Made by a program: the position numbers and the translations under genes
From: Vezdaea acicularis
Lineage: Eukaryota
DNA length: 64,000 nt
Direction: 5' to 3'
Assembly (NCBI GenBank): GCA_026025075.1
Contig: JAPEUI010000053.1
Location: forward strand, 1 to 64,000
In this document: in pieces, positions 4,072 to 58,745 of the stretch
Layout of the letters: each line of letters starts with the position of its first letter
How positions within the stretch are numbered: the stretch's first letter is position 1
Notes under the pieces: model-generated
Seen by the model: the letters and a program-made list of their open reading frames with translations, nothing else
The model's database searches: none
Told to the model about the DNA's origin: nothing

Positions 4072-4352
4072 TGTCAGGGCACGGGGTGTCCAGACACTGC
4101 AAGGACAAAGCGTCCTGATATGGGTTTATGATGAAAGAGTTGCATTGTTTCTATCTAGGGGGATACGCTATATATACGGGTCATCACGTGCCCGATCACG
4201 ACTGCCCAGTCAGGACAGCACGGTAAGCGCTGTCTGTTGCAGGGCAGTCGCATGCCTCATAACGCTGCCCCTATGGGCAGGCGCTATAAAAAAGCTGCGT
4301 CTATCAGTATATATCGTATCTGCTTCTGCCCTTATCCCGCTGTCCCACAACA
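4072..4352 (-). mobile_element. Solo LTR (family A), least mutated copy
   Basis: TGTCAGGG...ACAACA ends. TSD CGGAT/CGGAA (4/5). Aligns with the 1202 and 2833 copies. Confidence 0.9.
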
Positions 4353-19150: not shown

Positions 19151-19734
19151 TATGTGACTTTCTCCTGGACTGACGGGTATATGTCCAAGCTTCAGCCCCC
19201 AGTGTTAAGTAATAACAAGTGCTCCTTGAGAATGTACCACTATCCTGTCCCAGCATTGGCACAATTGCTAGACGTCGGGCGTTGCTAGCAATTGTGGTGA
19301 TTCTAGATCTGCTCCTGATTTAGATCAACAAAAACTGCCGATTTTGGTTGATTATTAAGGGCACCATCAGTAAATAAGCCTTCGATCCTAAATACGGCAC
19401 GGGAATGTGCAGAGCTTCCCACCTACATCATTCTCACTTTACCAAGATTCATAACTTTATTTATGTGAAACATTCAGAGCACTAAGCTTCAGGCTTATGA
19501 ATGCATCTACACCTCTGAGCATGAAAACGAAAATATTTGCGCGAAAAGGGTGATGCTGGAAACAAGCAAAGACGTCGTTTTCCGCGTGTCGAAGCTGTCC
19601 CAAGCTGCCAAGCGAAATTTTGCGCTCCTCTCTTTAAAACCGTCGACATGGTGATTTGATAGCTGCCTTAGTAGACTTGGCCGCTGGCCGTCTCCAACAA
19701 TGAGGCTACAAGGCCTGCGTCCTTCTCCATTGAC

Positions 19735-22700
19735 ATGGCCTTGAAGTCCAGAGATCTCGTCCTTGGCTTCATTGTCACCTGCGGCGCTTGGACTGTGATC
19801 GCCCACTCGGCCCCTACCTTGCGGTACACAGGATATGCCTTTATTCTAGGTTCTTTAGCTAGTCTTGTGCTAGGCTCAGTTCTTATACTCTGGAATTCTA
19901 GGGGATCCATGATCAATGGCTCAGCGGTGCTTCCAAGACCGAAATCGCTTGCATTTGAATTACCGCATATATGGAATAATGAAATCGCTGCTCTGGAGGC
20001 ACGATCGATATATAGGCGAAGACCTCTTCACCCTCCCTCCTTCATCATATCAGACAACATAGACGGGTTGCTTGATTTAATCACCAAAGATTTTGTGACC
20101 TCATGGTACAAAAGTATCAGCCCTCGCTCGACCTTCGCCAACGAGGTGCATAAGTCTATAAGCACGGCACTTGCAAACATCCTTGATAGGATACTAGAAG
20201 TAGATTTTGTTGAGGTTGCAGTTTCGAAGATTGTTCCGGTAATCACTTTACATCTAAGGGATTGCTATGATGCAGAACGAGCCGTAAGAGGCAAATATTT
20301 GGATCGCAATTTTACTGAATCTGATGAGCTGGATCTTGCAATTGCGGCGAAGTACCGGAACGGCAAGCTTCATGCAGCAGCATCGCTTTCATACTCAGAC
20401 ACGAAGATTCTTCAGCAAGAGCATCTCCGAGGAGTAGTTGAGAAGATTCTACCCGCTGTGTTGCCGGAGGGCCAGAGCAAGAGCCGCGCTGTGAATATTC
20501 TTATTAAGGAAATAGTAGCATGCGCTGTTCTCTTCCCAATCATGCAATTACTCTCAGATCCGGACGCTTGGAATCAGATGTTAGAAAGCTATGTACGTAG
20601 GGTTTTCCCTGCCCACCACAATCTTGAAGACTGACATGAACTAGGGCCGGACGATGCTACAAGATCGGAAAACGGTCAGAAAGCTTAGAGCTGCGCTTGA
20701 CGAACATGCCTCGCCGAGCTCTAAGACGCGGCAACTAACGGCTTTTCCTAGACTTGCTCCACACGATAGTGATCGAAAGTTTGAAAGGTTTATCAGAGCT
20801 GCCCGAACCTGCCCAAATCTCTCCGATGCTAGGCGGTTTAGAAGCGAGATCTCCAGCCAGCTGAAGAGGGGCTCACGCATTGAAGGACAAGATCAGCTAT
20901 ACCTTCGACGCCTTGAGAATGGGAAGAGAACCCTTGATCAGAGAGTGGCGTACTTGTCCACCAGCGGTACCCCACGACGGAAAGTGCCCCTATCGTCGGC
21001 GAACAATGGTGACATTCTCTCTCGGCTGGAACAGGCTACCCTGAGCCAAGTTCTTCACGATGCTTCAGGACTTTCGTACTTCATGGAGTTCATGGATCGT
21101 CAACGAATGATGCCGCTTGTGCAATTCTGGATTGTGGTTGATGGATTTCGTAATCCTCTGGAGAATGTCTTCGCGGAAGACGATGAGTTGCCACCTGCTC
21201 CGCACCAATGGAGTGACTCTGACAGAATGGACATTGCTCAGATAAACGAAGCCTATTTCTCTAAATCGGACTTGCAGGTCTCTGAGCAATCTCGGAGTGC
21301 TGTTAACACGTTTCTAGCAGCTGGGCAGAATGCAACTCCTCAGGAATATCAACTTGCACGAAACGCGATACTCCGTGCTCAAAAACAAGTCGAAGATGAG
21401 ATGGAGAGCAAATTTTACCCTAAGTTTCAGGCCTCTGATCTATTCTACAAATACTTGTCTTCCGACGAGGCATCTTCAGCAACTACTTCTACACCTCTCC
21501 TTGTACGAAGGGCTCCATCTCTTGCAGTCGACGCCGCGAACACCTTAAAACCAAACTTTGCTTCCCGCCCATCGCTAAGAGCACTAGCTATCGCCAGACC
21601 AGAGCTTCGGAAGACAGCTACAGTGTCAGTGGGCGTAGAGTCTTCACCTTCTGTATCAGAGGATCCCTGGAACGCTACTAAACCTTTAGAGGCCCGACCA
21701 TCTACACCATTGTTTGATGATGACTACGACACGGATCCTCTCTCTCGTTCGACTTATAGTGTGGAAACCGAATCTAGTTCTCCTCACCAAGAGCTCGAGC
21801 CAGAATCACATGTTGTTGCCGCAGTTGAGGCAGCTCTCAACGACATTATGGAAACAGACCCTGATGATTCGAAAGACTCCCTACAAGATAGCTCAGATGC
21901 CACTTTAAGATTAGATGGGGATGAAGTTTCTCAAAGGAGCTCTCTTGATCTTAGTCGTATCGAGATCACTGGCCAAGACAATAATAGATTCAAGCCAAGT
22001 ATAGCTTCGCTTGGCCTGGTGAACGCGTCTTCTCGAATCGGCGTCTTCACTGATGATGATCTCTTTCCAGATGAAGAAAAGTTCATTCAAGATGAACGGG
22101 AAGATCCAGAAGAAGAGCAAAACACCAAATTCTCTCAGGATGAGATTCATGAGGCAGCTCCTGGCGATCTTGGGCTAGTAGAAGCTATCTCAGCATTGAC
22201 GATTGATCTTGAAAGACTTGCAGCGCAGGATTCTGTTGTCGAATCATTAACAAGAAAGGCTGAACTCACCAATAACACCGCAGAGCTCCGGATTCTACGG
22301 AAGTCGAAGGCAAGTCTACAGAGAGAGATGCGGCGTAAGGAGCTACAACGCCAGCAGTACATTGTCCAAGAGGGTGACAATAGCCTCTATGGACGCTCGT
22401 CTGTCAGGATCAAGTCAATCGTAGCCGGCAATGACATGGACGGCCACGAGTACGCACTCTATGTTGTTGAAGTCCAGCGGAAAGCTGGAGACCAAATGGC
22501 AGGAGCGACATGGGCCGTCGCGAGACGATATAGCGAGTTTCATGAACTTAACCAGCGTCTTCGCACTAAATACTCCTCAGTACGCCAATTAGAATTTCCT
22601 CGTCGACGTGTGGTGATGAAGCTCCAGCGCGACTTCCTTCAAAAACGTCGAATCGCTCTGGAACGATATCTTCGTGAATTGTTAGTGCTACCTGACGTAT

Positions 22701-23524
22701 GCCGCAGTCGTGACCTTCGAGCTTTCCTATCTCAGCAAGCTATCACATCGCCAGAATCAACCTCTGATTCACAAGGCGAGCGACAGGACATCATCACGCG
22801 TCTGTACAATTCAGTGACTGATGGTATGGAAGATCTTCTCGGTAACATTCCGGTCCTTGATCAGCTATCAGTTGCCGGCCAGAACTTGATATCTGCCGCG
22901 ACGAGTCAGTTGGGAACACCTCTGGATTCCGCTGCTACAATTTCTGAAGAACCTATAACGAATGCCGAGGCTGAGAAAGAACTAAATGCTTTCGAAGACC
23001 GAGAGCTTGAGCCTTTCGTCAAGCCGATCTGCGATATATTCCTTGAGCTTTTCGAGCTTAATCGGCGTAACAATTGGCTACGTGGCCGGGCTGTTGTTGT
23101 GGTGCTACACCAGCTTCTTGGTGGGACGATAGAAAGAAAAGTCCGCGAAGGGGCCAAACAATTTGTTCAAGAGGAAAATGTGATAAAATATCTAGACTAT
23201 TTTAAGGATACTATGTGGCCGAATAGTGTGCTAAAGAGGGAAAGCAAAGTTAGAACAGAAACTGAGAAGAAGAAGGCGAAGACGGAAGCAAGTCTCATGC
23301 TGGCTACGTTGGTACCAGACATGGCAGGAAGTGTAGTCGGCCGAGCGAACGCGCAAGCTGCTGCAAGGCGAATTGCTGCGACTGTTAATAATGAGAGGTT
23401 GAAGTAAGCTAGACCCTCCTGATTAAACTTATGTTGGACCCTAGCTCAAACTCATAGTACCCATCTGGCGTTCACTATTTTGGACCAGATTATGGAGGTG
23501 CTATTTGGGAAGTCGGCTACATAG
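19735..23524 (+). CDS. MDM1: PXA-RGS-PX-PXC sorting nexin (Mdm1/SNX13-14-like), 3 exons
   Basis: N-terminal hydrophobic segments, PXA (DFVTSWYKSIS), RGS-like (SGLSYFMEFMD...VQFW), PX (WAVARRYSEFHELNQRL...FP...LQKRRIALERYL), Nexin_C (NWLRGRAVVVVLHQLLGGTIERK). Confidence 0.88.
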
Positions 23525-26308: not shown

Positions 26309-29300
26309 CTATAAAGTAGGCGCTGGTTTAATGGTTGGGCCGAACGGCTCTTCTCTCGTCTCGCCCCTCGTTGGGTCTCGTCGGCCTATAAGGCTGCTGT
26401 AGTCGATATCATCATCTTCGAGTTCTTTCCCTCCAAAGCCCTTGGCGCTTGCCGCATCCGAGTCGTAGTCAGCCGTTCGCATTAAGGGAGGTGTCGAGGG
26501 CGCTTGCTCCATCCGTTTTGGAACCTTGTCCCTCCTGCGAGACACACCTTGCTGGCTTATGGAGCTTCCGTGGTCACTGACGTTCGACAGCGAGCGTCGA
26601 GCATCGATTGGACGGCCACGTGGTTCCGGAGTCTGTCGAAGGTTGGTGCTTGGCGGCGTGAGGAGGCCTGAGAGGAAGCTTGGCGTGGGAGGCGCTTTGG
26701 AAGGAGTCTCGCTGGAAGATCGAGCGCCATTACTCGCTGCGATCTCAGAGAGGTTGCCTACTGAGCTCTCACGGCCACGACGCCAGTTGCCCCAAGCTGC
26801 GGCAAGCGGAAGAACCGCAGCAGCAGCTTTTGGCGAGGCGAAGTTAGAGATGCTCGCTAGAGACGGGAAAGTTTGTCCGCCTGCCATTGCCCGCTCGCGT
26901 TCCTGCTGTTCCATTTGCAGATTCGTCTTCAATCTGATCGCAGCATCCTTGACAGCTTCTCGATCATAGGCCGCTTCAGACAGGTGCTTGACGATATCCT
27001 CAAGGTCCGCAATGCGCACGCCGAGAAGTTCGCGCAACCAACCAACCTCAATCTCACGTTCTTGCACCTTCTTAGGTGCGTCACGGTCGACCCCAGCAAG
27101 TTCCTGCTCGAGCTTCTCAATCCGCCCTTCGCGTTCTTGGAGCTGCTCTTGAAGGACCAAGATGGACTCTCGGAGAGCTTGTGGCGATATCTTCTCAGGC
27201 AGTTCCATCTCCTGGGGGACTGGAGCAGAGCCGCCTACTCTTGACGAAGCAGGCGATGAGATTGCGCTGACCTTCTGCGCAGCTTGAGCGGCAGCGCGAG
27301 CGGCACAATTAGAAACTTCAAGCTTCTCCTCGAGATGAGCGACCTTGTCATTGAGATGATCGGTCTTCGCATCAGACAGGCTTAAGCGTTCCATCAGATG
27401 CTGCTCCAATCGCTGCTTATCCTCGAGAGCGTTTCGTAAAGCCCTATCATGCTGCGACTTGATCGACTCCAAATGCAGCTCGTACTTGCGATGCTGCTCT
27501 TTCATCGCTACATCGCCGCTTTCACGTGTATCAGCTATAGCTTTGGCTTTGGCTGCCTCGCTTGCATCGCGGAGAAGCTCGAGATTCTCCCTTGATGTTT
27601 CCGCTTCCATTCTGAAGTGCTCTGTCTCAGCTCTTGCTCTATCCAGCTGACTATCCATCTCGGCACGGATGATGTTGACTTGGTTATTTGCTGCTTCGAT
27701 ATCCGCTTGCATGAGCACACGTGTACGTTGAACTTCATATCGACCAGCTTCTCTAGCTTCGTTGAACTCACGTTCAAACTTAGCAGCAGCACTTTGGTTG
27801 CTAATGCTCTCCTCTCGAAGGTTGTTAACAATAGTTTCGAGGTGGTTGTTTGCCTTCTGTACTTGTTCAACCTGAAATCTCGACTTCATTGCCTCGCGCT
27901 CTTGATTCTCCAATCTTTCAATTTCTCTTTCTAGCCTCTCTCTTGTTCGTGCTTCAGCCTCCAACCGAGCACCCATTATTTCTTGTCGAGACGCATGCTG
28001 TTGATCTTGCTTGCGCCATTGTTCTCGTTCTTGGGCAAATTCGTGTTCGGCCGAAACCATACCCTCCTGCAACTTGTCAAACTTCTCATCCAGACCATCT
28101 CGGATTCTGATACTTTCCTCCAGTCGGGTTTTGAGACTGTCCATCATCTTTCTCAGCTCCTTGTTCTCTGCATCTACAGTCTCGAGCTCGGCTTTCGACT
28201 TGTCACCAGCCAGTCTCGCCTCTCGAAGAGAACCTTCAAGTGCGGCATTCTTAGCAGAGAGATCAGATACTGTCTTCTGCGAATTCTCTTGTGCGCCCTC
28301 AAGAAGTGCAGTGCGCATTTGGACTTGGACCATGCTCTGATGGCGCTTATCGTCGATAGCACGAAGTTTGCGATCCTTCTCTTCGACCAGTTCTCGCTGC
28401 TTAGTCTCTTCCAGCCTGGAAAGTCGTAGTGCTTGCTCAAGCTCCAAGACCTTGCCTTCAGCTTTTCGACAATTCTGGACTTCCTGTTCAGCTCGTAGCT
28501 CTGCGTCCTTATGTAATCTCTCTAAAGTGGATGTTTTGAGCTGAAGCTCCTCCAGGCTGACATGAGGCGAAATCTTGGTGAAAGCAACCTGCTTGGAAAG
28601 GATGTCCTCCATGACAGACCTGATCTCGCCCACGTTGTGCTGCGGTCCAGGCTGTAGCGTGGATACCGCCTCCAAGACGACTGCTTTGATCTTCTCGAAC
28701 TTCTTGTCTTTTCGCGGTGACCACGACCTCTGCTGGAAGCTTTCGTTGATGTTGTCATCTTCATCATCCGCATCGCTATCTTTGCGATCGGCGGATGTGG
28801 TTTGTTCCACGCTGCGGGCTGATGCACGGTGCCCAGTCATCAGAGCGAGAGACTCCTGAATGATAGAGAGCGACTTTTCGAGAGGACCTAGGCGTTGTTG
28901 GAGGATACCGCCGACGACATCGTTGACACGATTATCGAAGTACAAGCTACGTGAATGCAATTTCGCATCCTCCGCAGGAGAATAGGCATCATCCCAATCA
29001 CTTGCAGGAAGATCGCCTGGAGTGTTTAGTCGGTGCACAGGAGAGTCGTAAGCCTTTCCAGGTTTACCAAACGTAAATGGATCACTGTCTAGTGATATAG
29101 ACTGAGACTGAACATCCTGAGGCAAAGCATGATACTGTTGCTGGAAGCGTTGAGGACTTGGGCTTGGTGCATCGCTCCTAATACGCTGTTCAGGCCGTAG
29201 GGTTTGCGCCGGCGTGGGATAGCTGAGCTTGTGCTCATTTTGTCGGGCAGCCTCGCGAGTCCAAGCGGGACCGGTTCTTTCTATACCGAAATCTGAGTCA

Positions 29301-32300
29301 CTGCCATTCAAATGTTTCATGACAGCGTCGACATCGTCCAAGGGATGCTGGTCGACACTCACGTCCCCGCTACTTTCGCGCGAGGTAGCCTTCTGAGATG
29401 CTGGAGGGCTAAGTTCCGGCGAAACAAGTCTACTCGGGTGCGATTCTGCGACAAGAGGATCCTTTATCACTTCTGGTGGCGTGTGACTCGTGGCAAATCT
29501 TGATGCCTCTAAACCCCCCAGCTTGCGAGGCGGCTCCCGAGCTTGAGGTTTCTTAGCTCCCAAGATCGAATCGAAGTCAGCTGCTGGCTGAGCGTTAAAA
29601 GGCTTCACAGCAGGTGTTGGGATATTTGATTTGCCCTTCGTCATCGAGGCCAGGTCTGCAGCTGCAGCTGCAAGTTCGGCTTGCTGGACTGAGAGCTCTC
29701 TCATATCTTCGTCAGAATCCTCGTTACCCTTGTAAACCTTCAATTGAGGGGACTTCATAGGTGGCTGAGAGGTAGGAGAGGTGCCGCTAAATTTTGCAGC
29801 TTCTTCTTGCTTAGCGAATTCCCATGGTGCGTATCCTCTCCCATCATAGTCTGGCGATTCATCCAAAAAGCTCCGTGGTCTAGGACCTATTGGTGGCTTT
29901 ACGCGGACAGACTCAGGGACAACGTCTCGCTCTTCGTCTTGAGGAATGCTGTTCTCTTTGCCGCCAAACTCAGTGTCAAGTCCCTTAGGTAAGTCTTTTG
30001 GTGGGGATGATGCTTGACCAGTCTCAGTAAGGGGATGGGTAGGAACGGCAAATTGGGGGACGTCATCCGCATCCACGTCATTACGGCGTGCTCTTTTCTG
30101 GTTTCCAGCCCGAGCTAATCGACCTTCGAAATCGTACACATCCTCTACGTCTTTCACAGGGTCACTACCTTCGTCTGGACGAATGATTGGGATGGCCTTC
30201 GATTTCTTGGCTGGAGGCACGGCGTCGGTGAAAGTGAAGATCTTTTCTTCTGTGCTGGAAGGCCCTACTGAGCCAGACTTTTCGCTGGCTATGGCATCAC
30301 TGACAGCTGGTTTGAATGCTAGATTGCCTGGAGTGAAAGCCGGAGCGTCAGGTCGAAACGAGGGGGCCGCCGCTGAGAAGTCGAAATTTCCGGACGGCAT
30401 GGATCTTGTTGAACTGCTTGGATTGAACGCCGGTGCTGCAACATTCAGCTTGCTACTATTAAGGCTTCCCAGAGATCCAATACTGATGTTGCTTGGGTGG
30501 GTAGAGTGGTTCGCAGTCTCAACGATAGGTTGAACGCTTTTTGCTGGTTGAAATTGGTTGCCGGAAAAGGAGAAGTTACCTGGTATGAATGACTTAGTTG
30601 GCTCAAAACTAAACTCCTTGGCCTCGACGTTTAGCTTAGAGACTGAGGACGTCGAATGATGACTAGGTCGAGACGGGTTAAGGACAGGCGGCTCGAACGC
30701 CCTCGATTTTGTATCTTGCCAAGGATTACTCATGTTCGATAGAGTATGTCCGTGACCCTGGGTACTAGTATAGAGTCTCCTCTCTGGCGAAGCGGAAAAG
30801 CTCGGGTTTGTGTCTACCTCCGAAATATTTGTCTTCCCACCCTCACTAATATCGTCATGAATCTCCTCCCTAATCCTATCTTCAACCTCCTGTGAGCTAG
30901 AAGGATCGATCTGGTCGCCAGAAGATTCTTGTGGGAGGGTAAGTTCTCTGATAGAGGGCGAAGACTCTGGAGTCATTATCTTATTGTTTTGCGGTGAAGG
31001 TTCGTCTGCAAGTCTTGAGCCGCTTATCTCCACCTGAGAGCCTTGGGTTCCTTTAGTGGCAACTGAAAAATTCTCCTGCGTATCAATTGGAGTGATCCCA
31101 CCGGGAGCTCCTGGCCTAGCGTCGCCAATGCTCGGAAACCTCCAAGCAGCTGCCGAGTCTGACAACGCTTCATTCTCTTCTCCATCAAGCTGTCGCGGTA
31201 TTGACTCCTCTAGATGATATTCTGCTTCATCAATCTCTTTTTGCAAGCTCTCGCTTACATTGTGGCGATGACCTCGAGGGACTGGGGTTGCGATCTCGGC
31301 ATTACTATGCTTGGTCTGGAGGCGGGCTTCTTCCTGGGTTTGGTATTGCTCCTCGTCTTCAGCCTCACGCACATTCTCTAAGCGTGGCGATTGGCTAGTA
31401 TTGAGAAGATTGAGAGGTTGCTGTTGTTGCTGTTGTTGATTTGGTTGATGGTGAAGTTGAGCTTGTATGGCTTGCTGCTGGAGACGCATTTGCGCCATGA
31501 GATCATTCTGTTGTTGGTTATCAAAAGGTGACCCAGGTGACAGAATCGCGCCCATGTTCTGCAGGTTCCCCAAGACTGCAGGCGATCCACCTCTCGCAAG
31601 TCCATGGGAATTGATGAACTGGTGAGGAGACCATATTGCTTGAATGGGAGGGGTCGCTTGATGAGACGCCATCTGGAAAGGCGAGCCGATCTGTTGCTCT
31701 CTACCGGGGAATGACATAGATTGGCGAGAGACGTGGAAGCCTGATGGCATGTGCTTGTGCGATGGCACTGGCGATGCAACAGAACCGACCTGAGAACTTG
31801 TACCTGTGGAGGTCCCAGGTATGAAAGCTGGTGAAAATGTGTTTGCGTGATGAGATGCACTATTACTTGCCGCGGATGATGTTGGAAGTGGTGGCGAAAA
31901 TGGCAAGTGTGGATATTGAGACGATGGTTGTCTGCCCATTGAGGATGCTGCAGGTGACATGGCCGGTGCGGTGTCGTCGTCCCCAAAAGACACACCAAGC
32001 GCACGAAGCTTCTCCTCGTTAAGATAATTGACATAGGCTTCCCATTCCCGGCGGTCTGGTATGCTGACTCTATACTGTCTTTCCTTTCCTTCGGAAGTCA
32101 ACTCGACCGGATCAGGCCAAATGTCCTTGCTTTGAACGAGATCATCCGATGTTACTTGCTTCTTAACGGCATCTTGATGATCAAATCCTTGCGTGTTGAA
32201 ACCTTGAGCATTCCATCGTTCCATCTTCGCTCCGACTTCAGACACCTGGAGGGGCTTGAGGCGTCTTCCCTCATCGAAGGGTAGGCTGACTGCAATGTTT

Positions 32301-32590
32301 TTACCAGCGCAAGTACCCTTGCCCTTGACAGTAGTTTTCTTCTTCGGTTTGATGGGGCTAGATACAGGTGAGCTGGTAGGTGGCGTTGCTGATGCCATGG
32401 TAGTAATTTGGTCCGAAACCTCTCTTGTCGGAAAGTCTGAGACTGTCCGTAAATGAGGAGGCGGAGGTAAGGGCTTGTCCATCGCAGGCGGTGGGTTTCT
32501 TTGGGCAGCCCCTGATGAGCCGGAGACCGAATGCCCACCCGCTACTTGAGCAGCGGGTGAGGACGAATTTGCATATATGGACGCTTGCAT
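26309..32590 (-). CDS. Giant PAM2-motif and long coiled-coil protein (~2090 aa from the first AUG; the frame stays open to 33499)
   Basis: Intronless 7.1-kb ORF with an S/P/Q-rich N-half, PAM2-like motifs at 30329-30640 and a ~600-aa heptad-rich region near the C-terminus. First in-frame ATG at 32590; true start uncertain. Confidence 0.85.
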   Translation of the reverse strand: MQASIYANSSSPAAQVAGGHSVSGSSGAAQRNPPPAMDKPLPPPPHLRTVSDFPTREVSDQITTMASATPPTSSPVSSPIKPKKKTTVKGKGTCAGKNIAVSLPFDEGRRLKPLQVSEVGAKMERWNAQGFNTQGFDHQDAVKKQVTSDDLVQSKDIWPDPVELTSEGKERQYRVSIPDRREWEAYVNYLNEEKLRALGVSFGDDDTAPAMSPAASSMGRQPSSQYPHLPFSPPLPTSSAASNSASHHANTFSPAFIPGTSTGTSSQVGSVASPVPSHKHMPSGFHVSRQSMSFPGREQQIGSPFQMASHQATPPIQAIWSPHQFINSHGLARGGSPAVLGNLQNMGAILSPGSPFDNQQQNDLMAQMRLQQQAIQAQLHHQPNQQQQQQQPLNLLNTSQSPRLENVREAEDEEQYQTQEEARLQTKHSNAEIATPVPRGHRHNVSESLQKEIDEAEYHLEESIPRQLDGEENEALSDSAAAWRFPSIGDARPGAPGGITPIDTQENFSVATKGTQGSQVEISGSRLADEPSPQNNKIMTPESSPSIRELTLPQESSGDQIDPSSSQEVEDRIREEIHDDISEGGKTNISEVDTNPSFSASPERRLYTSTQGHGHTLSNMSNPWQDTKSRAFEPPVLNPSRPSHHSTSSVSKLNVEAKEFSFEPTKSFIPGNFSFSGNQFQPAKSVQPIVETANHSTHPSNISIGSLGSLNSSKLNVAAPAFNPSSSTRSMPSGNFDFSAAAPSFRPDAPAFTPGNLAFKPAVSDAIASEKSGSVGPSSTEEKIFTFTDAVPPAKKSKAIPIIRPDEGSDPVKDVEDVYDFEGRLARAGNQKRARRNDVDADDVPQFAVPTHPLTETGQASSPPKDLPKGLDTEFGGKENSIPQDEERDVVPESVRVKPPIGPRPRSFLDESPDYDGRGYAPWEFAKQEEAAKFSGTSPTSQPPMKSPQLKVYKGNEDSDEDMRELSVQQAELAAAAADLASMTKGKSNIPTPAVKPFNAQPAADFDSILGAKKPQAREPPRKLGGLEASRFATSHTPPEVIKDPLVAESHPSRLVSPELSPPASQKATSRESSGDVSVDQHPLDDVDAVMKHLNGSDSDFGIERTGPAWTREAARQNEHKLSYPTPAQTLRPEQRIRSDAPSPSPQRFQQQYHALPQDVQSQSISLDSDPFTFGKPGKAYDSPVHRLNTPGDLPASDWDDAYSPAEDAKLHSRSLYFDNRVNDVVGGILQQRLGPLEKSLSIIQESLALMTGHRASARSVEQTTSADRKDSDADDEDDNINESFQQRSWSPRKDKKFEKIKAVVLEAVSTLQPGPQHNVGEIRSVMEDILSKQVAFTKISPHVSLEELQLKTSTLERLHKDAELRAEQEVQNCRKAEGKVLELEQALRLSRLEETKQRELVEEKDRKLRAIDDKRHQSMVQVQMRTALLEGAQENSQKTVSDLSAKNAALEGSLREARLAGDKSKAELETVDAENKELRKMMDSLKTRLEESIRIRDGLDEKFDKLQEGMVSAEHEFAQEREQWRKQDQQHASRQEIMGARLEAEARTRERLEREIERLENQEREAMKSRFQVEQVQKANNHLETIVNNLREESISNQSAAAKFEREFNEAREAGRYEVQRTRVLMQADIEAANNQVNIIRAEMDSQLDRARAETEHFRMEAETSRENLELLRDASEAAKAKAIADTRESGDVAMKEQHRKYELHLESIKSQHDRALRNALEDKQRLEQHLMERLSLSDAKTDHLNDKVAHLEEKLEVSNCAARAAAQAAQKVSAISSPASSRVGGSAPVPQEMELPEKISPQALRESILVLQEQLQEREGRIEKLEQELAGVDRDAPKKVQEREIEVGWLRELLGVRIADLEDIVKHLSEAAYDREAVKDAAIRLKTNLQMEQQERERAMAGGQTFPSLASISNFASPKAAAAVLPLAAAWGNWRRGRESSVGNLSEIAASNGARSSSETPSKAPPTPSFLSGLLTPPSTNLRQTPEPRGRPIDARRSLSNVSDHGSSISQQGVSRRRDKVPKRMEQAPSTPPLMRTADYDSDAASAKGFGGKELEDDDIDYSSLIGRRDPTRGETREEPFGPTIKPAPTL

Positions 32591-35500
32591 TGTCCCGATT
32601 AGCGGATGGTCGTCTTTCGGTGACTGAAGGAGGTTCAGAAAATCCCTAGGCTTCAGAGTCTCGTTGCTCTTCCTGGATTTATGTCTCCTCACACCTTTCC
32701 CGGACACAGTCCTGCCAGAACCTCGACCGCTTTCCAGGGATTTGCCAATTTCGAGGCCAAAGTCCTCTATCTTATCCTCATACAAATTGCCGCTGGCTTG
32801 CGACCAGTGATCTTCACCTGCTTCAGTCGACCAGCTTAGGTTTCCTCTCGAAGATAATATTTTGGGAGCACTTTCAGCGGAATCGTCGCTCCACCAATTA
32901 CCTCGTTCTGAGTCAAAATGGCCAGTTAGATACTCCCGCACCCACTCCTTATTATTCCCTTGAATAGGTTCTGCCCTTAGTTGCGATGCAACCCGAGAAC
33001 TCGACGACCGTGGCAAAATTTCAGAAGTGAATGTACTTGATTGAACACGTCCTTCGGAGTAATCGGCAGAGGTGATAGGAGGAAGCAGACTTTCGAACCT
33101 TAGATTGTGTACAGGTAGATCGTCACCAAAATCGTCACTACTGAAAGTGCGCTCGTGGAAATATCTACTTTGTGACGTAGGAGTCGAGCTTGGGGGTGGG
33201 CGTTGGTAGGGAGAACCCCAGCTTGCGGTGTAGTAGAGACTACTGTCCGTCTGCCTGTGTGCTGGTGGAGAGGACGGTACCTCTTGAGCAGCCGCTACGC
33301 CTAATGCCAATGGCAAGGCGGGAAGTCCAGGAGATGAGGATGTGCGAGAGGACCCTGGGTCTGATGTCCTGAAAGTTGTTGCTGACGACCAGGACGTATT
33401 TGGGTCTTGTATACTTGACCAATCGAGTTTGCCGTCTTGCAGCAAGGCAGGAGGGGGCGATGAACGTAGTGTCCGTTGTGCTAAAATAACATGGACAAGT
33501 TACGATTCCATCCTTCTTCGACGAAGATATGCGGAAAGGGAGACACACCTTCCACCTCGAAGAACAGAGCAAGCGATCTTGACGAAGACCGCTCGCTTCA
33601 CGAAGGTCTCTAGGCGCTTTAAAACAAGTCGCCAAAGTGCGATGAGAGTATTCTCCAAAAGAAGACCTTTGCGCAGGCCGGAGCAATGTGACGACGCGAC
33701 GGAAACCCCTCGAAAAGCACCAGAAAAAAAAAGATGTGGTTAAGGAAAGATATGAATGAGCGACATGGTAAGGTCAGGATGGCACGTTCTGCAGAATGGA
33801 AGCATCGGAAGTGCAGACGCAGTTCCGGCGCAGAGATGGAGGTGCTTATGAGGGAAGACGGGGGGAGTTGAGGTTGGCAGTGCTAGGAAATGTTCGGATC
33901 GACGACAATCTCTCGTCAAGTCGCGATGGGTGGACCGACGTGTTTGCACGGAGCAGGAGCGGCGGCTTTTTACTGGCTGCTGGTCTTTTGCCGAGCCACT
34001 TCGCTCCGATTTTGTCCTCTTGTACCAGGGCCGAACCTTGAACGAAACACTGTGCCTACCTGCATTTGACTTGTGATAGCTTGTGCGGTTCCCTTTTAAA
34101 ACGACGTGGAGGTGGCCCTTTCATGATATCCGTCTTATGAATTTTTTCAAGCTTTGTACTCGACTGGGCTCTGAACGAGAAGCGGACAATTACCGTGTAT
34201 TCTTCAAATGCCATTATGATCCTTCGTGGTCCAAATGTATGTTGATGAGCATGAGACCGAAACATCGAGGGATAGCGATCGAATCTTTTATTATACGTAG
34301 AAGAACTCGTCGAAGTCCGATTAATCTATAGTTTCATCCAATCTGAGTTTCTGCCTCCGAAAACCAGTTTTTTGTTTGCATGAAGGAATCTCCAGAATAA
34401 TACGGCAGCCCAAATCGGCGTTGCATCAACCCTGAGATTTTGCCGAGCAAGACCGACATCTCGTACGTGCGACAGACCTCCGATTCATCAACAAAATGCC
34501 TTTCCTCTCAAGATCAGTCATTGCCTTGGGCGTTATTTCGCTCGCGCATGCGTAAGTCGGCGTTCTGTTGATTCCGTGTTGCGGACGCAGCTAATTCGAC
34601 CCATGTGATACAGCTGCTACTCCACCCATGAATTCTCGTCCATAACGCAGTCTTCTCTTCAGCCAAGTCTGACATCCTCTTCTTCCGCTGCATCCAAACT
34701 GCCCCTAGATATAAGGATAGAGACCCTATTATCGGCAGTTTTGATCTGTCTAGGTCTTGTTCTGGAAGCACCGGCCCTGAAGCCAATATCCTGGAGAGTA
34801 TGGGCTGGCTCAATCGAAAGGAGCGGCGACAAGGGCGAAAGCGGACATCCTTTCCAAGGGCTTGAGACCAGAGTCGGCTTTCTGGATATCAGAGTACGTT
34901 CTCACGCGGTCGGCTTGTCGAGTATGTGACAAGAACTTAATTGATACGGGCTTTCGCCTCATACCATTGCTGAACAGCAATGAAGCATGGAGCACTGACA
35001 AGACCGTTGTAGAAAAAACGGAAAGAATTCGCAGAGTGGGTGGCAGAGCAAGAACCTGTCAAGAGTTAGAAGCAAACTACCGGTGCAGGTAAGATGCCGT
35101 ACACTAATTGATCACTTGGGTTTAACTCGTCTTAGAAGTTCTTCGAGGCATAGCATTATAGTCAAACAGAAAATATGACCTTGTTCCACATGGGCTAAAG
35201 ACGCCGCGTGCACAAAGTGACGACAGGGTTATTAATGATACACATTCCCTATCTTGGGATTCTATGACTATAACCTCCCATACTGTAATACCCGTCAACA
35301 GAACGTCCCTGAAATTCTAAGCGCAACTCCTCATCTGGCGCGTCAGCCTTATAGACTGAAACCTCCGCATTTTAGTGACCTTGTCAGCGAAGTCGCCTCT
35401 TGGTCTGATCATGGATATCTCCAGGCATTCTATTAAGTCATGTGTAGACGTCTCTTACGAATTGACTGTTATGACGCTCAAAGGATACACTTGACGACGT

Positions 35501-38631: not shown

Positions 38632-39014
38632 CCTGAAGCTCAATGAAACTAGTCTGCTGATATACTATGGAGTATGAATTTGGGAGCAGATTCAGGGAAA
38701 GTGGGGAAATTTGGCACGTCGAGACTATTTAAATCCCAGTCATTGTAAACACGAATTTTCGTATCAGTGTTAACACGTGATTAGTATCAAAATAGCGCTA
38801 GGCAAGGATTGTAGCATTAAGCCAATCAGCATTGATCTTAAAGATCGCATCTGGAATTCTTTCGGCTTCATTCTAGAATGCGCCAGTGCCATTCCCAGGA
38901 GTTCTATGAGATTCTGGGCTCTGACTCTGAGCTCAAATTATCCCGGACGTGTAAAAACCATCACCTTGTGTCCGATGTTCTCAGGCTGGCCTGATGTGAA
39001 AGCCGTCATCAGCA

Positions 39015-41366
39015 ATGTTAACGTCACGGTCAAGATTGGTTGCCTCACGGCACCTCCGAGCGGCCGCCCATCGCCCTGGCCCATTCGCTGCTGTTTCTAG
39101 ACTCTCTGCCAGACCAAAACTGGTCACAGCACAGCCTCTACTTCGAATATCTTTCTCCCGAAATTATACGAATGGCAGACCGCATCCACCCGGTGGAACA
39201 CATCGTATGAACCTTGGTGGCGAGCCCGAAAAGCCTGCATTGGAGCAGTATGGCGTCGACCTCACAGCTCGAGCTAAAGATGGGAAGCTAGATCCAGTAA
39301 TTGGGAGAGATGCCGAGATCCATCGTACTATTCAAATACTATCGAGGCGAACCAAGAATAACCCTGTCCTTATTGGTGCAGCCGGAACTGGCAAGACTGC
39401 TATCCTCGAGGGGCTTGCGCAACGGATCGTGAGGGGCGACGTTCCGGAGAGCATAAAGAATAAGCGTGTAATATCTTTGGATCTTGGGCAGCTCATTGCT
39501 GGCGCGAAGTTCAGGGGAGATTTTGAGGAACGGTTGAAGGCTGTCCTCAAAGAGGTAGAAGATGCACGAGGCGGAGTCATCTTATTCGTCGATGAGCTTC
39601 ATACCCTCCTAGGCCTTGGAAAGGCTGAGGGAAGTATCGATGCAAGCAACTTGCTAAAGCCCGCTCTTTCTCGAGGCGAACTTCAATGCTGTGGAGCGAC
39701 AACGTTGAACGAGTATAGACAAATTGAGAAAGATGTTGCACTAGCCAGGCGTTTCCAACCCATCCAAGTCGGCGAACCTTCAGTACAAGACACGGTCTCA
39801 ATTCTGAGGGGTATCAAGGAGAGATATGAAGTACACCATGGAGTGCGGATTACGGATGGTGCGCTTGTTGCGGCGGCTACATACTCAAACCGCTATATTA
39901 CGGACCGATACCTGCCCGACAAAGCTATTGATCTTGTCGATGAAGCAGCAAGTGCTCTGAGGCTTCAACAAGAGAGCAAGCCAGACGCTATACAACAGCT
40001 TGATCGCCAGATAATGACCATCCAGATCGAGCTTGAGAGTCTTCGAAAGGAAACCGACGTCACTAGCATTGAGCGGAAAGAGAAGTTGGAACAACATCTG
40101 AAGCAAAAGCAAGCCGAAGCAGAAGAGCTAACGCTAAAGTGGGAGGAAGAAAGGGCAGAGATTGACGCCATCAAAACGACTAAGAAGAATCTTGAAAAGG
40201 CAAGGCTGGAGCTCGACCAAGCGCAACGCGAAGGAAATTTTGCCAAAGCTAGTGAACTGAGATATGCTGTCATACCGAAGCTTGAGGACAAGCTTCCCAA
40301 GGAAGGGGAGAATGCGCCCGGTGCATCAGGCGCTCTACTGCACGATTCGGTCACGGCCGACGACATTGCCTCCGTTGTCTCGCGCTCGACTGGCATCCCT
40401 ATTACAAAACTCATGGCTGGCGAAGTGGAGAAGTTGATACATATGGAGGAAACTCTTCGACAATCAGTCCGTGGCCAGGACGAGGCTCTCACAGCTGTTG
40501 CTAATGCTGTCCGCATGCAAAGAGCAGGATTGAGCGGAGAAAACCGTCCACTTGCAAGTTTCATGCTATTAGGCCCAACTGGGGTAGGAAAGACAGAACT
40601 CTGCAAGAAGATGGCAAGCTTTCTATTCTCGACAGAGTCAGCCGTGCTCAGGTTTGATATGAGCGAGTTCCAAGAGAAGCATACAGTTTCGCGACTTATT
40701 GGCAGTCCAGCCGGCTATGTTGGCTACGAGGATGCGGGCCAGCTCACCGAAGCTGTGAGAAGAAAGCCATACGCGGTCTTGCTCTTTGACGAGTTTGAGA
40801 AGGCTCATCGCGACATTTCCGCTCTCCTCCTCCAGGTTCTTGACGAAGGCTTCTTGACAGATTCACATGGAAACAAAGTTGACTTCAGAAATACAATAAT
40901 TGTGCTGACCTCTAATCTGGGTGCTGAGATTTTAGTCAACGAGAACGCACTCGCCGAGGAGATTGGCGGAAGCGAAAAAATCCCTGAGTCTACCAGAAAA
41001 GCTATTATGGATGTTGTTGGCTCTTGTTATCCTCCAGAGTTCTTGAATCGAATTGACGAGTTCATCATATTCCAGCGTCTCTCGAAATCGGCGCTTCGAG
41101 ACATCGTCGATATTAGGCTGAAAGAATTACAGCAGCGTCTCGATGATAGACGAATCAGACTTGAAGTCGATCAAGAGGTCAAAGGATGGCTTTGTGAGAA
41201 AGGCTATGATCCTCGATACGGCGCTCGCCCGCTTAATCGGTTGATAGCGAAGGAGGTTGGGAACAGGCTTGCCGACAAGATCATAAGAGGTGAACTAAAA
41301 GGTGGGGCTAGCGCGAAGATATCGATTGTTCAAGACAAGATTAGCGTTAGCAGCAACGCGTTGTAA
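39015..41366 (+). CDS. HSP78: Mitochondrial ClpB-type disaggregase Hsp78 (intronless)
   Basis: Arg-rich mitochondrial presequence, no ClpB N-domain. [48 protein letters not shown]. Confidence 0.96.
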
Positions 41367-45727: not shown

Positions 45728-47453
45728 TCACAGTGTCAACTTATAGTCCCTCCTCAGCGCGTCCGGCAAGACGCCCACCGCAAGTGACGCTGCATTTCTC
45801 TCCCTCGCCTGAGCCGGAAAATCCTTTAGTGCCTTCCTTAGCGCTACCAGCGCTGCGCTACCATAGAACTCTAGGATCCGCTTCTCATAGCCCTCAATCA
45901 TAGCCTTCAGCACTTCATAGTGTGTCTTCTCCGCCCGTTCCGGGCCCAGGTTGACGATGCATGCTAGGCTCGCCCAATAGTGGCGGTTTGGGTACGGTGC
46001 CTTGAGGTTCTGGCTCTTGGAGAAGTTGCGCAGCGCGATAGCGGCGTAACCGGCTCCCAAACCAGTCATTCGTTCCGAGTGCCGCTGCTCGCTCACAAAG
46101 GGACCGAGTTTCGATTCGCGCCACCAGCCGAGTCGGTCTTTGCCTTGACTAGTATTCTCAAAGCCGTGGATGCCCCAGAGGACGGGGCAGACGACACGGA
46201 ACTTCGCGATCAGGATGTCGATAAGAGTATGCCCCTCCCACAGGTAGTCTGGGCTTGAGAAGATCTGTACGCAAACGATGCCGACGGGGTCAGCGGCTTT
46301 GGGCGTCACACCTGCTTCTGAGATAAATTGGTTGATGATAGCTTTAGCGAAGATGTTGAGGAGATAGAGAAACACGCTTGGGAGGGGAGTGGACTGTCCG
46401 TTTGCATTTTGCGTTGGCGGGAGAGTGGGGATATAGTTGCGTGGGTCGATCATGGGAGTCGACGTTGCGCCGACAGCTTTTTTGAAGATGGTGTTGATGA
46501 CGCTTACCTATATCAATTAGATTAGATTCTGCTTACTAACGCGCGGGGAGGGTCTGGAGGGATGAAAGTGAAGATGGCTGATGAGGATTTGTGCTTTCAG
46601 GAGTGCTGCTAAGTAGGAACCATGGTCTTACAGGGGCTTTGTTTGCGCCGCGCCCTTCCGTCAGTTGGCCGACGCTTTTGCGGATTTCTCGACGCATCTC
46701 GCCAAGTTGTTTCTTCAGGTTGGGCTCTTGTCTCGCAAGGCCGAGCATATCGTGCCGTAGTTGTTTTAGTCGGCGGTGCACTTCTACGTAATGTTGTTGC
46801 TTACCGTCAAATCCGTCAGTGATTGATGCTTCTTTCCCTACATTCGGTACTCGTTGAGTCGGGTTTGTCGGTGTTGCAGCGGCTGGTATCTGCGTATGTC
46901 TTTTTTGCTCTTCCCGTGCCCTTGCTGCCGCTGCCGCCGCCTCTTCTTGTTCTTTTTGCTTTTGAAGAGAATGCTGTTTGTGCCTTTCTGCTGCTGCTCG
47001 AGCAGCATCCTGCTGCTGTCGTTCAGTTTCCTCCCTTCGTTGCCGTGCGTCTGCTTCGGCCTTGACCCTTGCGTCTTCCTCTGCTTTCCTTCTCTCTGCC
47101 TCGACTCTTTGCGCTTCCGCAATCAATCTTCTCTTCTCAGCAACCTCTCGCTCCGCCTTTTCTCGTCGCGCTTGCTCGAGCTTGACACGCTCAGCTTCGG
47201 CATGTCGTGCCCTCTCATTCTCAATCTCTAACTCGACCGTCTCACGTATAATGTCAGCTCGTTGGCGTATCTGCTCATGACGTGCTGCTGCTGCTGCTAA
47301 GGCCTTTAAGTGAGCTGCCTCAGACTCGCGGGCTTTGTGTTCGAGTTGCAGATAAAAGTCATGGTCGACACTCCTGCGCAGACGCCCTTTGTCGATAAGG
47401 ATGGATAAGGTGGTATCGCGAGAGCCCAGCGACCTCCGAAAAGCTGGAGCCAT
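45728..47453 (-). CDS. GLE1: mRNA export factor Gle1-like (2 exons; intron ~46509-46632)
   Basis: E/R/A-rich coiled coil, then RKSVGQLT, YLLNIFAKAIINQFISEA, AKFRVVCPVLWG, GRLGW-like DRLGWWR, ERMTGLGAGYAAI (fungal GLE1 domain). Confidence 0.85.
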
Positions 47454-58705: not shown

Positions 58706-58733
58706 TACACACGCACGCACGCACACACACACC
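58706..58733. repeat. (CA)n/(CGCA)n microsatellite immediately upstream of the ERB1 ATG
   Basis: ACACACGCACGCACGCACACACACACCAC. Confidence 0.7.
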
Positions 58734-58745
58734 ACCCATCCCATC

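What the first reader, a model, noticed from the sequence alone, without database searches (positions are those of the whole stretch)
26309..32590. Giant PAM2 + coiled-coil protein: candidate ascomycete counterpart of the Upa2 mRNA-transport scaffold
Seen: three clustered PAM2-like peptides, SKLNVEAKEFSF (30640-30605), SKLNVAAPAFNP (30454-30419) and SFRPDAPAFTP (30361-30329). They sit in a disordered region followed by a very long coiled coil and a Trp motif (AAAWGNWRR) near the C-terminus of a ~2100-aa protein. Established: PAM2 (LNxxAxxFxP) binds the MLLE domain of poly(A)-binding protein. Ustilago Upa2 is a similarly sized multi-PAM2/coiled-coil/GWW scaffold for endosomal mRNA transport, a machinery to my knowledge regarded as largely absent from ascomycetes. 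Inference: this protein, which would probably be auto-annotated as myosin-like, may be a PABP-binding mRNP transport scaffold in filamentous ascomycetes.
Basis: partly seen in the sequence, partly recalled or inferred. Interest (0 to 1): 0.75.

Follow-up and report, generated by a model that had tools for sequence, protein, structure and literature searches.

The report
PxdA orthologue with conserved PAM2 motifs
This giant fungal gene is the counterpart of Aspergillus PxdA, the protein that lets cargo hitch rides on moving endosomes, and its conserved PAM2 peptides suggest how it could grab poly(A)-binding protein and so carry mRNA.

Summary
All three PAM2-like peptides and the Trp motif sit at the stated coordinates in one 2396-codon minus-strand frame (33499-26309). 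The motifs far exceed chance and are conserved across the family.

The protein is not an orphan. It is the orthologue of Aspergillus nidulans PxdA (AN1156), the early-endosome coiled-coil tether for peroxisome hitchhiking (35% identity over 1536 residues, collinear end to end). PxdA itself carries the same PAM2 triplet plus a fourth motif.

By published criteria the motifs are canonical PAM2 (Pab1-MLLE type), not PAM2L. An April 2026 preprint shows that PxdA is required for endosomal hitchhiking of SsdA/FabM mRNPs and leaves the physical link open. A July 2026 preprint mentions "PAM2L motifs" in PxdA in one sentence.

Direct Pab1 binding remains untested here because the complex predictor was unavailable. 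Homology to Upa2 is not shown: a C-terminal profile found only 296 clusters, a sharply bounded family. The Trp motif is neither C-terminal nor GWW.

The parts
26309..33499 (-). Open frame of the PxdA orthologue: 2396 codons from stop to stop, stop codon at 26309-26311. The 5' end and start codon are unresolved. The first in-frame ATG, at 32590, would drop conserved sequence.
   Evidence: BLASTP against A. nidulans AN1156.2 (P0291): 35% identity over 1536 aa, E = 0. Collinear feature map.
32591..33499 (-).
   Evidence: N-terminal alignment with 13 orthologues, consensus of A1, map.
31940..32347 (-). Conserved, probably folded N-terminal module (residues 385-520; KKKxxWxGK ... YRVSIPDRREWEAYV ... 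EEKLRALGVS). Function unknown.
   Evidence: Alignment blocks. AlphaFold2 model: mean pLDDT 74.1, pTM 0.36, beta-hairpin plus four helices. No Foldseek match in the PDB at E <= 0.001.
30605..30640 (-). PAM2 motif 1, SKLNVEAKEFSF. Family consensus S-x-S-K-L-N-V-x-A-[K/P]-E-F-K-F-x-P.
   Evidence: The corresponding motif in PxdA is SSLNVEAKEFAP at residue 829.
30419..30454 (-). PAM2 motif 2, SKLNVAAPAFNP. Family consensus [L/F]-N-V-x-A-P-x-F-x-P. This is the best Pfam PAM2 stretch.
   Evidence: In PxdA: GRLNVAAPSFTP at residue 876. Median spacing from motif 1 is 58 residues.
30329..30361 (-). PAM2-like motif 3, SFRPDAPAFTP. Family consensus F-[R/K]-P-D-A-P-x-F-x-P, with Leu replaced by Phe and Asn by Arg/Lys.
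   Evidence: In PxdA this position holds ASLNVAAPEFNP at residue 913.
29585..29614 (-). Degenerate relic of PAM2-like motif 4 (PAVKPFNAQP). The family consensus here is S-L-S-A-x-A-K-P-F-E-F-x-P.
   Evidence: In PxdA: SALSASAKPFSF at residue 1108.
30173..30205 (-). Conserved basic block KSKAIPIIRPD downstream of the PAM2 triplet, followed by a KRAR-type basic patch. Function unknown.
28754..29044 (-). Conserved module before the coiled coil: SPVHRLN, SDWDD, FFDxxVNDxVGGxLxxRLxPLE, SDADDEDD.
27254..28564 (-). Long coiled coil (residues 1646-2082). It corresponds to most of PxdA CC1-3.
   Evidence: 437-residue proline-free stretch, 56-76% E/K/R/Q/L/A, hydrophobic period 3.5. Aligns to PxdA at about residues 1494-1928. 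The PxdA CC1-3 construct spans aa 1466-2116 (PMC4748578).
26882..27184 (-). Highly conserved three-helix module (residues 2106-2206: ISPQALRES..., WLRELLGVR, AAIRLKTNLQMEQQERER). It contains R2189 (codon 26933-26935), the equivalent of PxdA R2044, whose change to Pro detaches PxdA from endosomes.
   Evidence: AlphaFold2 helices at 12-42, 47-79 and 86-112 of the segment, pLDDT 85-96. R2189 is invariant in A1. R lies at position 2045 of P0291. The R2044P phenotype is from PMC8101442.
26777..26803 (-). Trp motif AAAWGNWRR. It is a conserved short motif in a low-confidence (probably disordered) stretch just after the three-helix module, and it lies inside the PxdA region that suffices for endosome binding.
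   Evidence: Present in 363 of 387 stored full-length family proteins. pLDDT is about 47-52.
26333..26677 (-). C-terminal tail (PxdA UR2 equivalent) with conserved FLSGLLTPP (26651-26677), TPPLxR..YD.DA and a terminal PFGP (26333-26347).
   Evidence: The primer-derived PxdA C-terminus DGPFGPQIA matches P0291.

Best explanation
The gene encodes the orthologue of Aspergillus nidulans PxdA, a roughly 2300-aa protein.

Its C-terminal part is a long coiled coil, a conserved three-helix module and a Trp motif. This part anchors the protein on motile early endosomes. That role is shown for PxdA and inferred here by orthology.

Its long disordered N-terminal region carries a conserved triplet of canonical PAM2 peptides. 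In most relatives there is also a fourth PAM2-like motif, which is degenerate in this window.

The most likely working is as follows. [quoted passage not shown] A PxdA coiled-coil dimer or oligomer would then present several Pab1 sites and tether polyadenylated mRNPs to PxdA-marked endosomes. Such mRNPs include those holding the Ssd1-type protein SsdA/GUL1. The coiled-coil region separately serves peroxisome hitchhiking.

What is shown: orthology, motif presence, motif conservation, and PAM2 rather than PAM2L type. What comes from the literature: PxdA is on endosomes and is needed for SsdA/FabM mRNP motility. What is inferred: direct PAM2-MLLE binding, and that this binding is the bridge to mRNPs.
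For: Orthology:
- P0291, named 'AN1156.2 [Aspergillus nidulans FGSC A4]', has 2236 aa, the gene number and length published for PxdA (PMC4748578).
- Primer sequences printed in PMC8101442 translate to DGPFGPQIA and LQERVAHL. These occur at the C-terminus of P0291 and 333 residues before it.
- The published mutant residue S201 is exact in P0291. Q846, Q1201 and R2044 are found at +1.
- The window protein aligns to P0291 at 35% identity over 1536 aa, E = 0. All 26 mapped features are collinear.
- The R2044 equivalent (R2189) is invariant in 52 sequences.

Motifs:
- 303 of 306 stored family proteins have at least 1 core PAM2, and 264 of 306 have at least 2. Shuffles average 0.0044 per protein.
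- Among 114 full-length representatives of 50%-identity clusters, 109 have at least 1 core motif, 82 have at least 2, and all 114 have at least 1 loose motif.
- The median spacing between the first two motifs is 58 residues, IQR 53-63.
- PxdA has SSLNVEAKEFAP, GRLNVAAPSFTP, ASLNVAAPEFNP and SALSASAKPFSF.
- PAM2 is the recurrent Pfam hit: 13 of 21 members. The excised window region scores 26 bits against a 20-bit cut-off.

Motif type:
- The consensus xxLNxxAxEFxP with FxP spacing defines PAM2. PAM2L is acidic with FxxP or [DE][DE]FxY. Pab1 MLLE binds PAM2 but not PAM2L (PMC9249222; PMC11572963).
- [DE][DE]FxY occurs in only 4 of 306 family proteins, and in neither the window protein nor PxdA.

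Function:
- pxdA deletion nearly abolishes movement of SsdA puncta. These puncta co-move with FabM, and the authors leave open whether the link is direct (10.64898/2026.04.14.718127).
- PxdA lacking aa 1-1465 still supports peroxisome motility. The PAM2 region is therefore free for another task.
Against:
- On full-length proteins the Pfam PAM2 model stays below its cut-off for 20 of 21 members and for the window protein.
- Motif 1 ends in Phe rather than Pro. Motif 2 lacks the Glu. Motif 3 has Phe/Arg in place of Leu/Asn. Motif 4 is degenerate in this window.
[quoted passage not shown] Binding to Pab1 would therefore not prove that it is the operative tether.
- The only reported PxdA pull-down analysed one excised 75-100 kDa band and named DipA, not FabM (PMC8101442).
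- 5 of 114 cluster representatives lack a core motif: Teloschistaceae lichens and the Aureobasidium group.
Confidence: 0.65

Rival explanations
1. The protein is a true evolutionary orthologue of basidiomycete Upa2, not just an analogue. On this view one ancestral multi-PAM2 endosomal scaffold diverged beyond easy recognition in the two phyla.
For: - Size and layout match the published Upa2 description: 2121 aa, a central PAM2 triplet within aa 834-1216, an important N-terminal region at 339-599, a C-terminal coiled coil at 1712-2121, and a Trp-containing motif needed for endosomes (10.1101/455378).
- PxdA has its PAM2 triplet at 829-924, a conserved N-terminal module at about 381-498, a coiled coil from about 1494, and a Trp motif at 2087-2095.
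- The two families have complementary ranges. Upa2 is reported only in Basidiomycota (10.1101/467787) and PxdA only in Pezizomycotina (PMC10295486).
Against: - A profile of the best-conserved PxdA region (the C-terminal 183 residues) found only 296 clusters at E <= 0.001 in 1.84 billion representatives. Of these, 264 were below 1e-30, and all 150 listed scored at least 228 bits with PxdA-like placement. There is no broad tail of weak relatives such as many basidiomycete Upa2 clusters would give. Ranks 151-296 were not visible.
- Published BLAST with PxdA found no U. maydis homologue.
- The Upa2 GWW lies at the very C-terminus, whereas here W-G-x-W lies about 156-164 residues from the end.
- PxdA has no PAM2 near its N-terminus.
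Confidence: 0.13
2. The PAM2-like peptides are real short linear motifs but bind a partner other than Pab1. Candidates are another hitchhiking component such as DipA, or an unknown receptor. The likeness to PAM2 would then be coincidental.
For: - Sub-threshold Pfam scores on full-length proteins.
- Motifs 3 and 4 depart from the Leu-Asn core, and A-P-x-F-x-P units recur in tandem in some Dothideomycetes, e.g. P0092 and P0097.
- DipA is the only partner reported so far (PMC8101442).
Against: - Motifs 1 and 2 keep Leu/Phe, Asn, Ala and Phe, with FxP or FxF spacing, at 95-100% across the family.
- Leu and Phe are the published determinants of MLLE binding.
Confidence: 0.15
3. It is a myosin-like or generic structural coiled-coil protein, as the automatic names say (myosin class II heavy chain, CEP250, SbcC ATPase).
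For: Source names, and the long coiled coil.
Against: Pfam finds no motor, ATPase or any other domain at E <= 10 apart from PAM2. The characterised orthologue is an endosome-bound tether.
Confidence: 0.01

Closest known systems
PxdA (AN1156) of Aspergillus nidulans, Pfam PF26916 family; early-endosome linker for peroxisome, Woronin-body and SsdA-mRNP hitchhiking
   Same: - Full-length collinear homology.
- Same architecture: long uncharacterised N-terminal region, coiled coil of about 600 aa, short tail.
- The arginine whose mutation releases PxdA from endosomes is conserved.
- Same PAM2 triplet and same Trp motif.
   Different: - Only 35% identical.
- The fourth PAM2-like motif is degenerate in the window protein.
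- Motif 3 is the F-R-P-D-A-P type rather than L-N-V.
- The start codon is not defined.
- Nothing is known experimentally for this organism.
Upa2 (UMAG_10350) of Ustilago maydis, multi-PAM2 scaffold of endosomal mRNA transport
   Same: By the published description, Upa2 is about 2100-2300 aa, largely disordered, and has a central triplet of PAM2 motifs at a similar position. It also has a C-terminal coiled coil, a Trp-containing motif needed for endosomes, and a location on motile early endosomes with Pab1-containing mRNPs.
   Different: - No sequence homology has been demonstrated.
- GWW lies at the very C-terminus in Upa2, whereas here it is an internal W-G-x-W.
- Upa2 has an extra N-terminal PAM2.
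- Endosomal localisation of Upa2 depends on mRNA and Rrm4, whereas PxdA binds endosomes through its coiled-coil region.
- PxdA also carries peroxisomes.
Canonical PAM2 proteins (PAIP1/2, ataxin-2, eRF3, Tob, GW182, Upa1), Pfam PF07145
   Same: Motifs 1 and 2 fit xxLNxxAxEFxP at 5 of 6 consensus positions, lie in a disordered region, and have FxP spacing.
   Different: - There are three to four motifs per chain, which the Upa2 paper calls exceptional.
- Full-length proteins score under the Pfam cut-off.
- Binding has not been measured.
PAM2L motifs of Upa1 (bind Rrm4 MLLE3)
   Same: Both are short Phe-containing peptides in an endosomal adaptor. The July 2026 preprint uses this label for PxdA.
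   Different: The window and PxdA motifs lack the acidic run and the FxxP / [DE][DE]FxY core. Rrm4 is reported absent from ascomycetes.

Membership tests
PxdA / PF26916 | Full-length sequence homology to A. nidulans AN1156 | tested here: met
   BLASTP gives 35% identity over 1536 aa, E = 0. 26 features map collinearly. P0291 was identified by its source name and length, two primer-derived peptides, and 4 mutant residues (1 exact, 3 at +1).
PxdA / PF26916 | Match to the Pfam model PF26916 | tested here: inconclusive
   The local Pfam copy lacks the model. The precomputed PF26916 label is on the near-identical protein P0003 and on all 120 listed hits.
PxdA / PF26916 | Architecture: long N-terminal uncharacterised region, tandem coiled coil of about 600 aa, short C-terminal region | tested here: met
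   against the description in PMC4748578.
PxdA / PF26916 | Conserved Arg (PxdA R2044) within the conserved hydrophilic patch of CC3 | tested here: met
   R2189 in AAIRLKTNLQMEQQERER is invariant in 52 sequences. R lies at 2045 in P0291. The patch is described in PMC10295486.
PxdA / PF26916 | Localises to early endosomes and is needed for peroxisome or mRNP hitchhiking | not testable with these tools
   Known only for A. nidulans.
PAM2 motif (PF07145) | Consensus xxLNxxAxEFxP with Leu and Phe as key residues and FxP spacing | tested here: met
   Motif 1 keeps L, N, A, E and F (P replaced by F). Motif 2 keeps L, N, A, F and P (E replaced by A). Motif 3 keeps only A, F and P. The criteria are from PMC9249222.
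PAM2 motif (PF07145) | Score at or above the Pfam gathering cut-off (20 bits) | tested here: inconclusive
   The whole protein scores 14.2 bits. The excised 117-aa region scores 26.0 bits. PxdA scores 19.9 bits, and 1 of 21 members passes.
PAM2 motif (PF07145) | Binds the MLLE domain of poly(A)-binding protein | not testable with these tools
PAM2L motif (Rrm4-binding) | Acidic N-terminal half with an FxxP / [DE][DE]FxY core | tested here: not met
   [DE][DE]FxY occurs in 4 of 306 family proteins, is not conserved, and is absent from the window protein and PxdA.
Upa2 | Sequence homology to UMAG_10350 | tested here: inconclusive
   No Upa2 sequence was obtainable. The C-terminal profile search shows a sharply bounded family of 296 clusters, with ranks 151-296 unseen. 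Published BLAST was negative.
Upa2 | GWW motif at the very C-terminus | tested here: not met
   AAAWGNWRR lies at residues 2233-2241 of 2396. The C-terminus ends ...PFGPTIKPAPTL.
Upa2 | Several PAM2 motifs including a central triplet, plus a C-terminal coiled coil | tested here: met
   against the description.
Myosin class II heavy chain | Myosin motor (head) domain | tested here: not met
   Pfam at E <= 10 returns only PAM2.

The most novel reading that the evidence does not exclude
Endosomal mRNA transport was not lost in filamentous ascomycetes. On this reading PxdA is the diverged descendant, or at least the exact functional replacement, of the Upa2-type multi-PAM2 scaffold. Its canonical PAM2 triplet binds the Pab1/FabM MLLE domain directly. 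That supplies the 'missing bridge' between PxdA-marked endosomes and SsdA/Pab1 mRNPs. The adaptor gene and its cargo RNA-binding-protein gene (pxdA and ssdA) are kept close together in the genome from Eurotiomycetes to this distant lineage.
Probability: 0.15. Interest if true: 0.8.

Novelty: new member of a known kind. Interest (0 to 1): 0.5.

Why it matters
PxdA was long seen as a peroxisome-specific linker, and its 1465-residue N-terminal region is still called uncharacterised. A 2026 preprint shows that mRNPs also need PxdA to ride on endosomes and asks what connects them.

A family-wide conserved set of canonical PAM2 peptides gives a concrete, cheap-to-test answer. It predicts a clean separation of function: the PAM2 region for mRNPs, the coiled coil for peroxisomes and endosomes.

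It also corrects the label PAM2L. That matters because PAM2L-binding Rrm4 is absent from ascomycetes, whereas Pab1 is present.

For this window alone the result is an ordinary annotation: an orthologue of a known gene that databases misname as myosin.

Tried and rejected
- Own genome: none held, so the organism's own Pab1 could not be fetched.
- Stand-in MLLE: a metagenome scan with a degenerate pattern for GKITGMLLE gave 119 loci. L009 (Pfam MLLE 103.6 bits) and 35 others were aligned as A3.
Nothing was folded.
- RNA evidence for the 5' end: no RNA holder was listed.
- First exon: a scan of ATG, donor and acceptor combinations up to 900 nt upstream gave only poor donors, or a model (MES|IQDP...) that skips conserved residues. 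Left unresolved.
They might bear on whether FabM co-purifies with PxdA.
- Third primer tag: the sequence said to mark the start of PxdA delta1-816 translates to QQVPVP, which is not in P0291. My first guess that it matched the PRGHRHN block was wrong and was dropped.
- N-terminal module: the model is only moderately confident and Foldseek against the PDB found nothing.
- PDB sequence searches with the C-terminal profile and with the PAM2 region: nothing below E = 0.07.
- ESM Atlas with PF26916 left out: the C-terminal part gave short unnamed clusters, commonest phylum Basidiomycota, at scores 0.89-0.91, with no ids to test. The central part gave nothing above 0.82. These are leads only.
- Earlier findings of this scan: none.
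- A direct Upa2 comparison was impossible because no tool yielded a Upa2 sequence.

Full report
**Observation.** The minus strand holds one uninterrupted frame from 33499 to 26309 (2396 codons). They exceed chance: the protein has 2 core (LNxxAxxFx[P/F/Y]) and 4 loose matches, and none of 5000 shuffles reached either count. Pfam's PAM2 model scores 14.2 bits on the whole frame, against a cut-off of 20. On the excised 117-residue region it scores 26.0 bits with two stretches. The surrounding sequence is rich in S/T/P/G/N/Q. A 437-residue proline-free stretch with a 3.5-residue hydrophobic period (residues 1646-2082) follows.

**Gene start.** One correction is needed. The gene therefore starts further 5'. 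I found no in-frame ATG and no convincing first exon, and no RNA run was listed.

**Identity.**
- A search with the whole protein returned 974 relatives among 7998 scored candidates. All 120 listed carry the precomputed family PF26916, many are named 'Myosin class II heavy chain' by UniRef, and all named ones are Pezizomycotina.
- A search restricted to the conserved C-terminal 146 residues brought in a Eurotiales member, P0173.
- Searching with P0173 returned P0291, 'AN1156.2 [Aspergillus nidulans FGSC A4]', 2236 aa. AN1156 and 2236 aa are the published gene number and length of PxdA (PMC4748578, passages).
- Two primers printed in PMC8101442 translate to DGPFGPQIA and LQERVAHL. These are the C-terminus of P0291 and a site 333 residues before it.
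- The published mutant residue S201 is exact in P0291. Q846, Q1201 and R2044 sit at +1.
- A third primer tag did not match and was dropped.
- The window protein aligns to P0291 at 35% identity over 1536 residues, E = 0. 26 landmarks map collinearly from YYT(A/T)xWGSPY to the terminal PFGP.
- I conclude that the gene is the PxdA orthologue (about 0.97).

**What PxdA is known to do.**
- It is an early-endosome-associated linker required for peroxisome hitchhiking. The coiled-coil construct aa 1466-2116 is necessary and sufficient for endosome localisation and peroxisome motility, and the N-terminal 1465 residues are an 'uncharacterized region'.
- R2044P in CC3 releases it from endosomes, and DipA is a partner.
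- It is reported only in Pezizomycotina, and BLAST found no U. maydis homologue (PMC10295486).
- The R2044 equivalent here is R2189, invariant in 52 aligned sequences.
- AlphaFold2 places R2189 in a confident three-helix module (pLDDT 85-96). The Trp motif AAAWGNWRR follows in a low-confidence stretch. The motif is present in 363 of 387 stored full-length family proteins, and it lies within the endosome-binding construct of PxdA.

**The PAM2 motifs across the family.**
- Of 306 stored family proteins, 303 have at least one core motif and 264 at least two. Shuffles give 0.0044 per protein. These 306 are the top hits of three searches, are not independent, and include the near-identical P0003.
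- A more even sample comes from the best 150 hits of a profile search. Among its 114 full-length representatives of 50%-identity clusters, 109 have at least one core motif, 82 at least two, and all 114 at least one loose motif.
- The five without a core motif are Teloschistaceae lichens and the Aureobasidium group.
- Four motif classes recur at fixed spacing, with a median of 58 residues between the first two. They are SKLNVxA[K/P]EFKFxP, [L/F]NVxAPxFxP, F[R/K]PDAPxFxP and SLSAxAKPFEFxP.
- The fourth class is degenerate in the window protein.
- PxdA itself has SSLNVEAKEFAP (829), GRLNVAAPSFTP (876), ASLNVAAPEFNP (913) and SALSASAKPFSF (1108).
- PAM2 is the recurrent Pfam hit, in 13 of 21 diverse members. 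Only one of them passes the cut-off, and PxdA scores 19.9 bits.

**PAM2 or PAM2L?** According to PMC9249222, PAM2 has the consensus xxLNxxAxEFxP, with Leu and Phe as determinants and FxP spacing, and it is bound by the Pab1 MLLE domain. PAM2L is acidic with FxxP spacing and is bound by Rrm4 MLLE3, not by Pab1. PMC11572963 gives the PAM2L core as [DE][DE]FxY. That core occurs in 4 of 306 family proteins, is never conserved, and is absent from the window protein and PxdA. The motifs are therefore of the canonical PAM2 type. Rrm4 is reported as absent from Ascomycota (10.1101/467787), which leaves Pab1 as the expected reader. This last step is inference.

**Prior art.**
[quoted passage not shown] Deletion of pxdA or dipA nearly abolishes their movement.
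[quoted passage not shown] It does not contain the words PAM2 or MLLE. It describes Upa2 as absent from ascomycetes.
- Searches for PxdA with PAM2, with PAM2L and with Upa2 found no other paper making the link.

**Relation to Upa2.**
- The layouts are strikingly alike by the published description and the map.
- Homology, however, is not shown. A profile of the C-terminal 183 residues (11 sequences, A4) found only 296 clusters at E <= 0.001 among 1.84 billion representatives, 264 of them below 1e-30. All 150 listed scored at least 228 bits, so there is no broad weak tail. Ranks 151-296 were not visible.
- The Trp motif differs from GWW in sequence and in position, and PxdA lacks an N-terminal PAM2.
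- No Upa2 sequence could be obtained for a direct test.
- I rate true orthology at about 0.13, and analogy as the safer description.

**Binding test.** No genome of this organism is held. I fetched a fungal-type MLLE stand-in from metagenome contigs and prepared a job with controls. The complex predictor never accepted the job and then closed. Direct binding therefore rests on motif type and conservation alone. [quoted passage not shown]

**Other parts.** A conserved N-terminal module (residues 385-520) folds with moderate confidence into a hairpin plus helices and has no match in the PDB. Conserved blocks before the coiled coil, and the tail, are listed under parts.

**Verdict.** This is a real feature, correctly seen. 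It is a new member of a known family (PxdA). The mechanistic reading, canonical PAM2 binding to the Pab1 MLLE domain as the mRNP bridge, is well supported by sequence, hinted at in print, and still untested.

Noticed in passing
window 49590-53800 (+), against 26309-33499 (-): An Ssd1/SsdA-type gene (CSD, RNB and Dis3L2 C-terminal domains, split over two frames) lies about 16 kb from the PxdA orthologue. In A. nidulans, pxdA is AN1156 and ssdA is AN1158, two locus numbers apart, and SsdA mRNPs need PxdA to move. This may be conserved linkage of the adaptor gene and the cargo RNA-binding-protein gene.
   Followed up: partly
window 33500-34300 (-): The roughly 300 conserved N-terminal codons have no in-frame ATG. 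A good acceptor (ttattttag, about 33482) exists, but no matching donor and ATG combination does. The near-identical database protein P0003 starts at a position that is Leu in the window, i.e. a non-ATG start call.
   Followed up: partly
window 31940-32347 (-): A conserved module of about 135 residues in the 'uncharacterized region' of PxdA (PxdA aa about 381-498) has no Pfam, PDB-sequence or Foldseek match. It is removed in the functional delta1-816 construct.
   Followed up: partly
window 4001-8000: A strongly AT-rich stretch (GC 0.33 and 0.23, against about 0.48 elsewhere). It could be a repeat-degraded element or a gene desert.
   Followed up: no
window 19675-23407 (+): A PXA-RGS-PX-Nexin_C sorting nexin (SNX13/Mdm1 type) is split over two frames by an intron. 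It is another endosome/organelle-contact gene near the PxdA orthologue.
   Followed up: no
window 39000-41366 (+), 45728-47483 (-), 58644-61310 (+): Neighbouring genes are a ClpB/Hsp104-type AAA chaperone, the mRNA-export factor Gle1 (two frames), and Bop1/Erb1. Also present are coatomer beta, a Trm8-type methyltransferase, a microbial-type PARG domain protein, a MutS domain V fragment and Sas10.
   Followed up: no
P0198, P0212, P0217, P0275 and other Aspergillus entries; P0013, P0018, P0021: Several database models fuse the PxdA orthologue to a glycosyl hydrolase family 17 domain (PF00332) at the N-terminus. Others fuse it to MFS or PQ-loop domains. These are probably merged neighbouring genes, and they show how poorly the 5' end of this gene is modelled.
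   Followed up: no
family motif 1, window 30605-30650 (-): The serines just before PAM2 motif 1 (S-x-S-K-L-N) are 92-96% conserved. PxdA has 12 detected phosphosites and binds the phosphatase DipA. Phospho-control of PAM2-MLLE binding is a possibility; that such control exists for other PAM2 proteins is recalled, not checked here.
   Followed up: no
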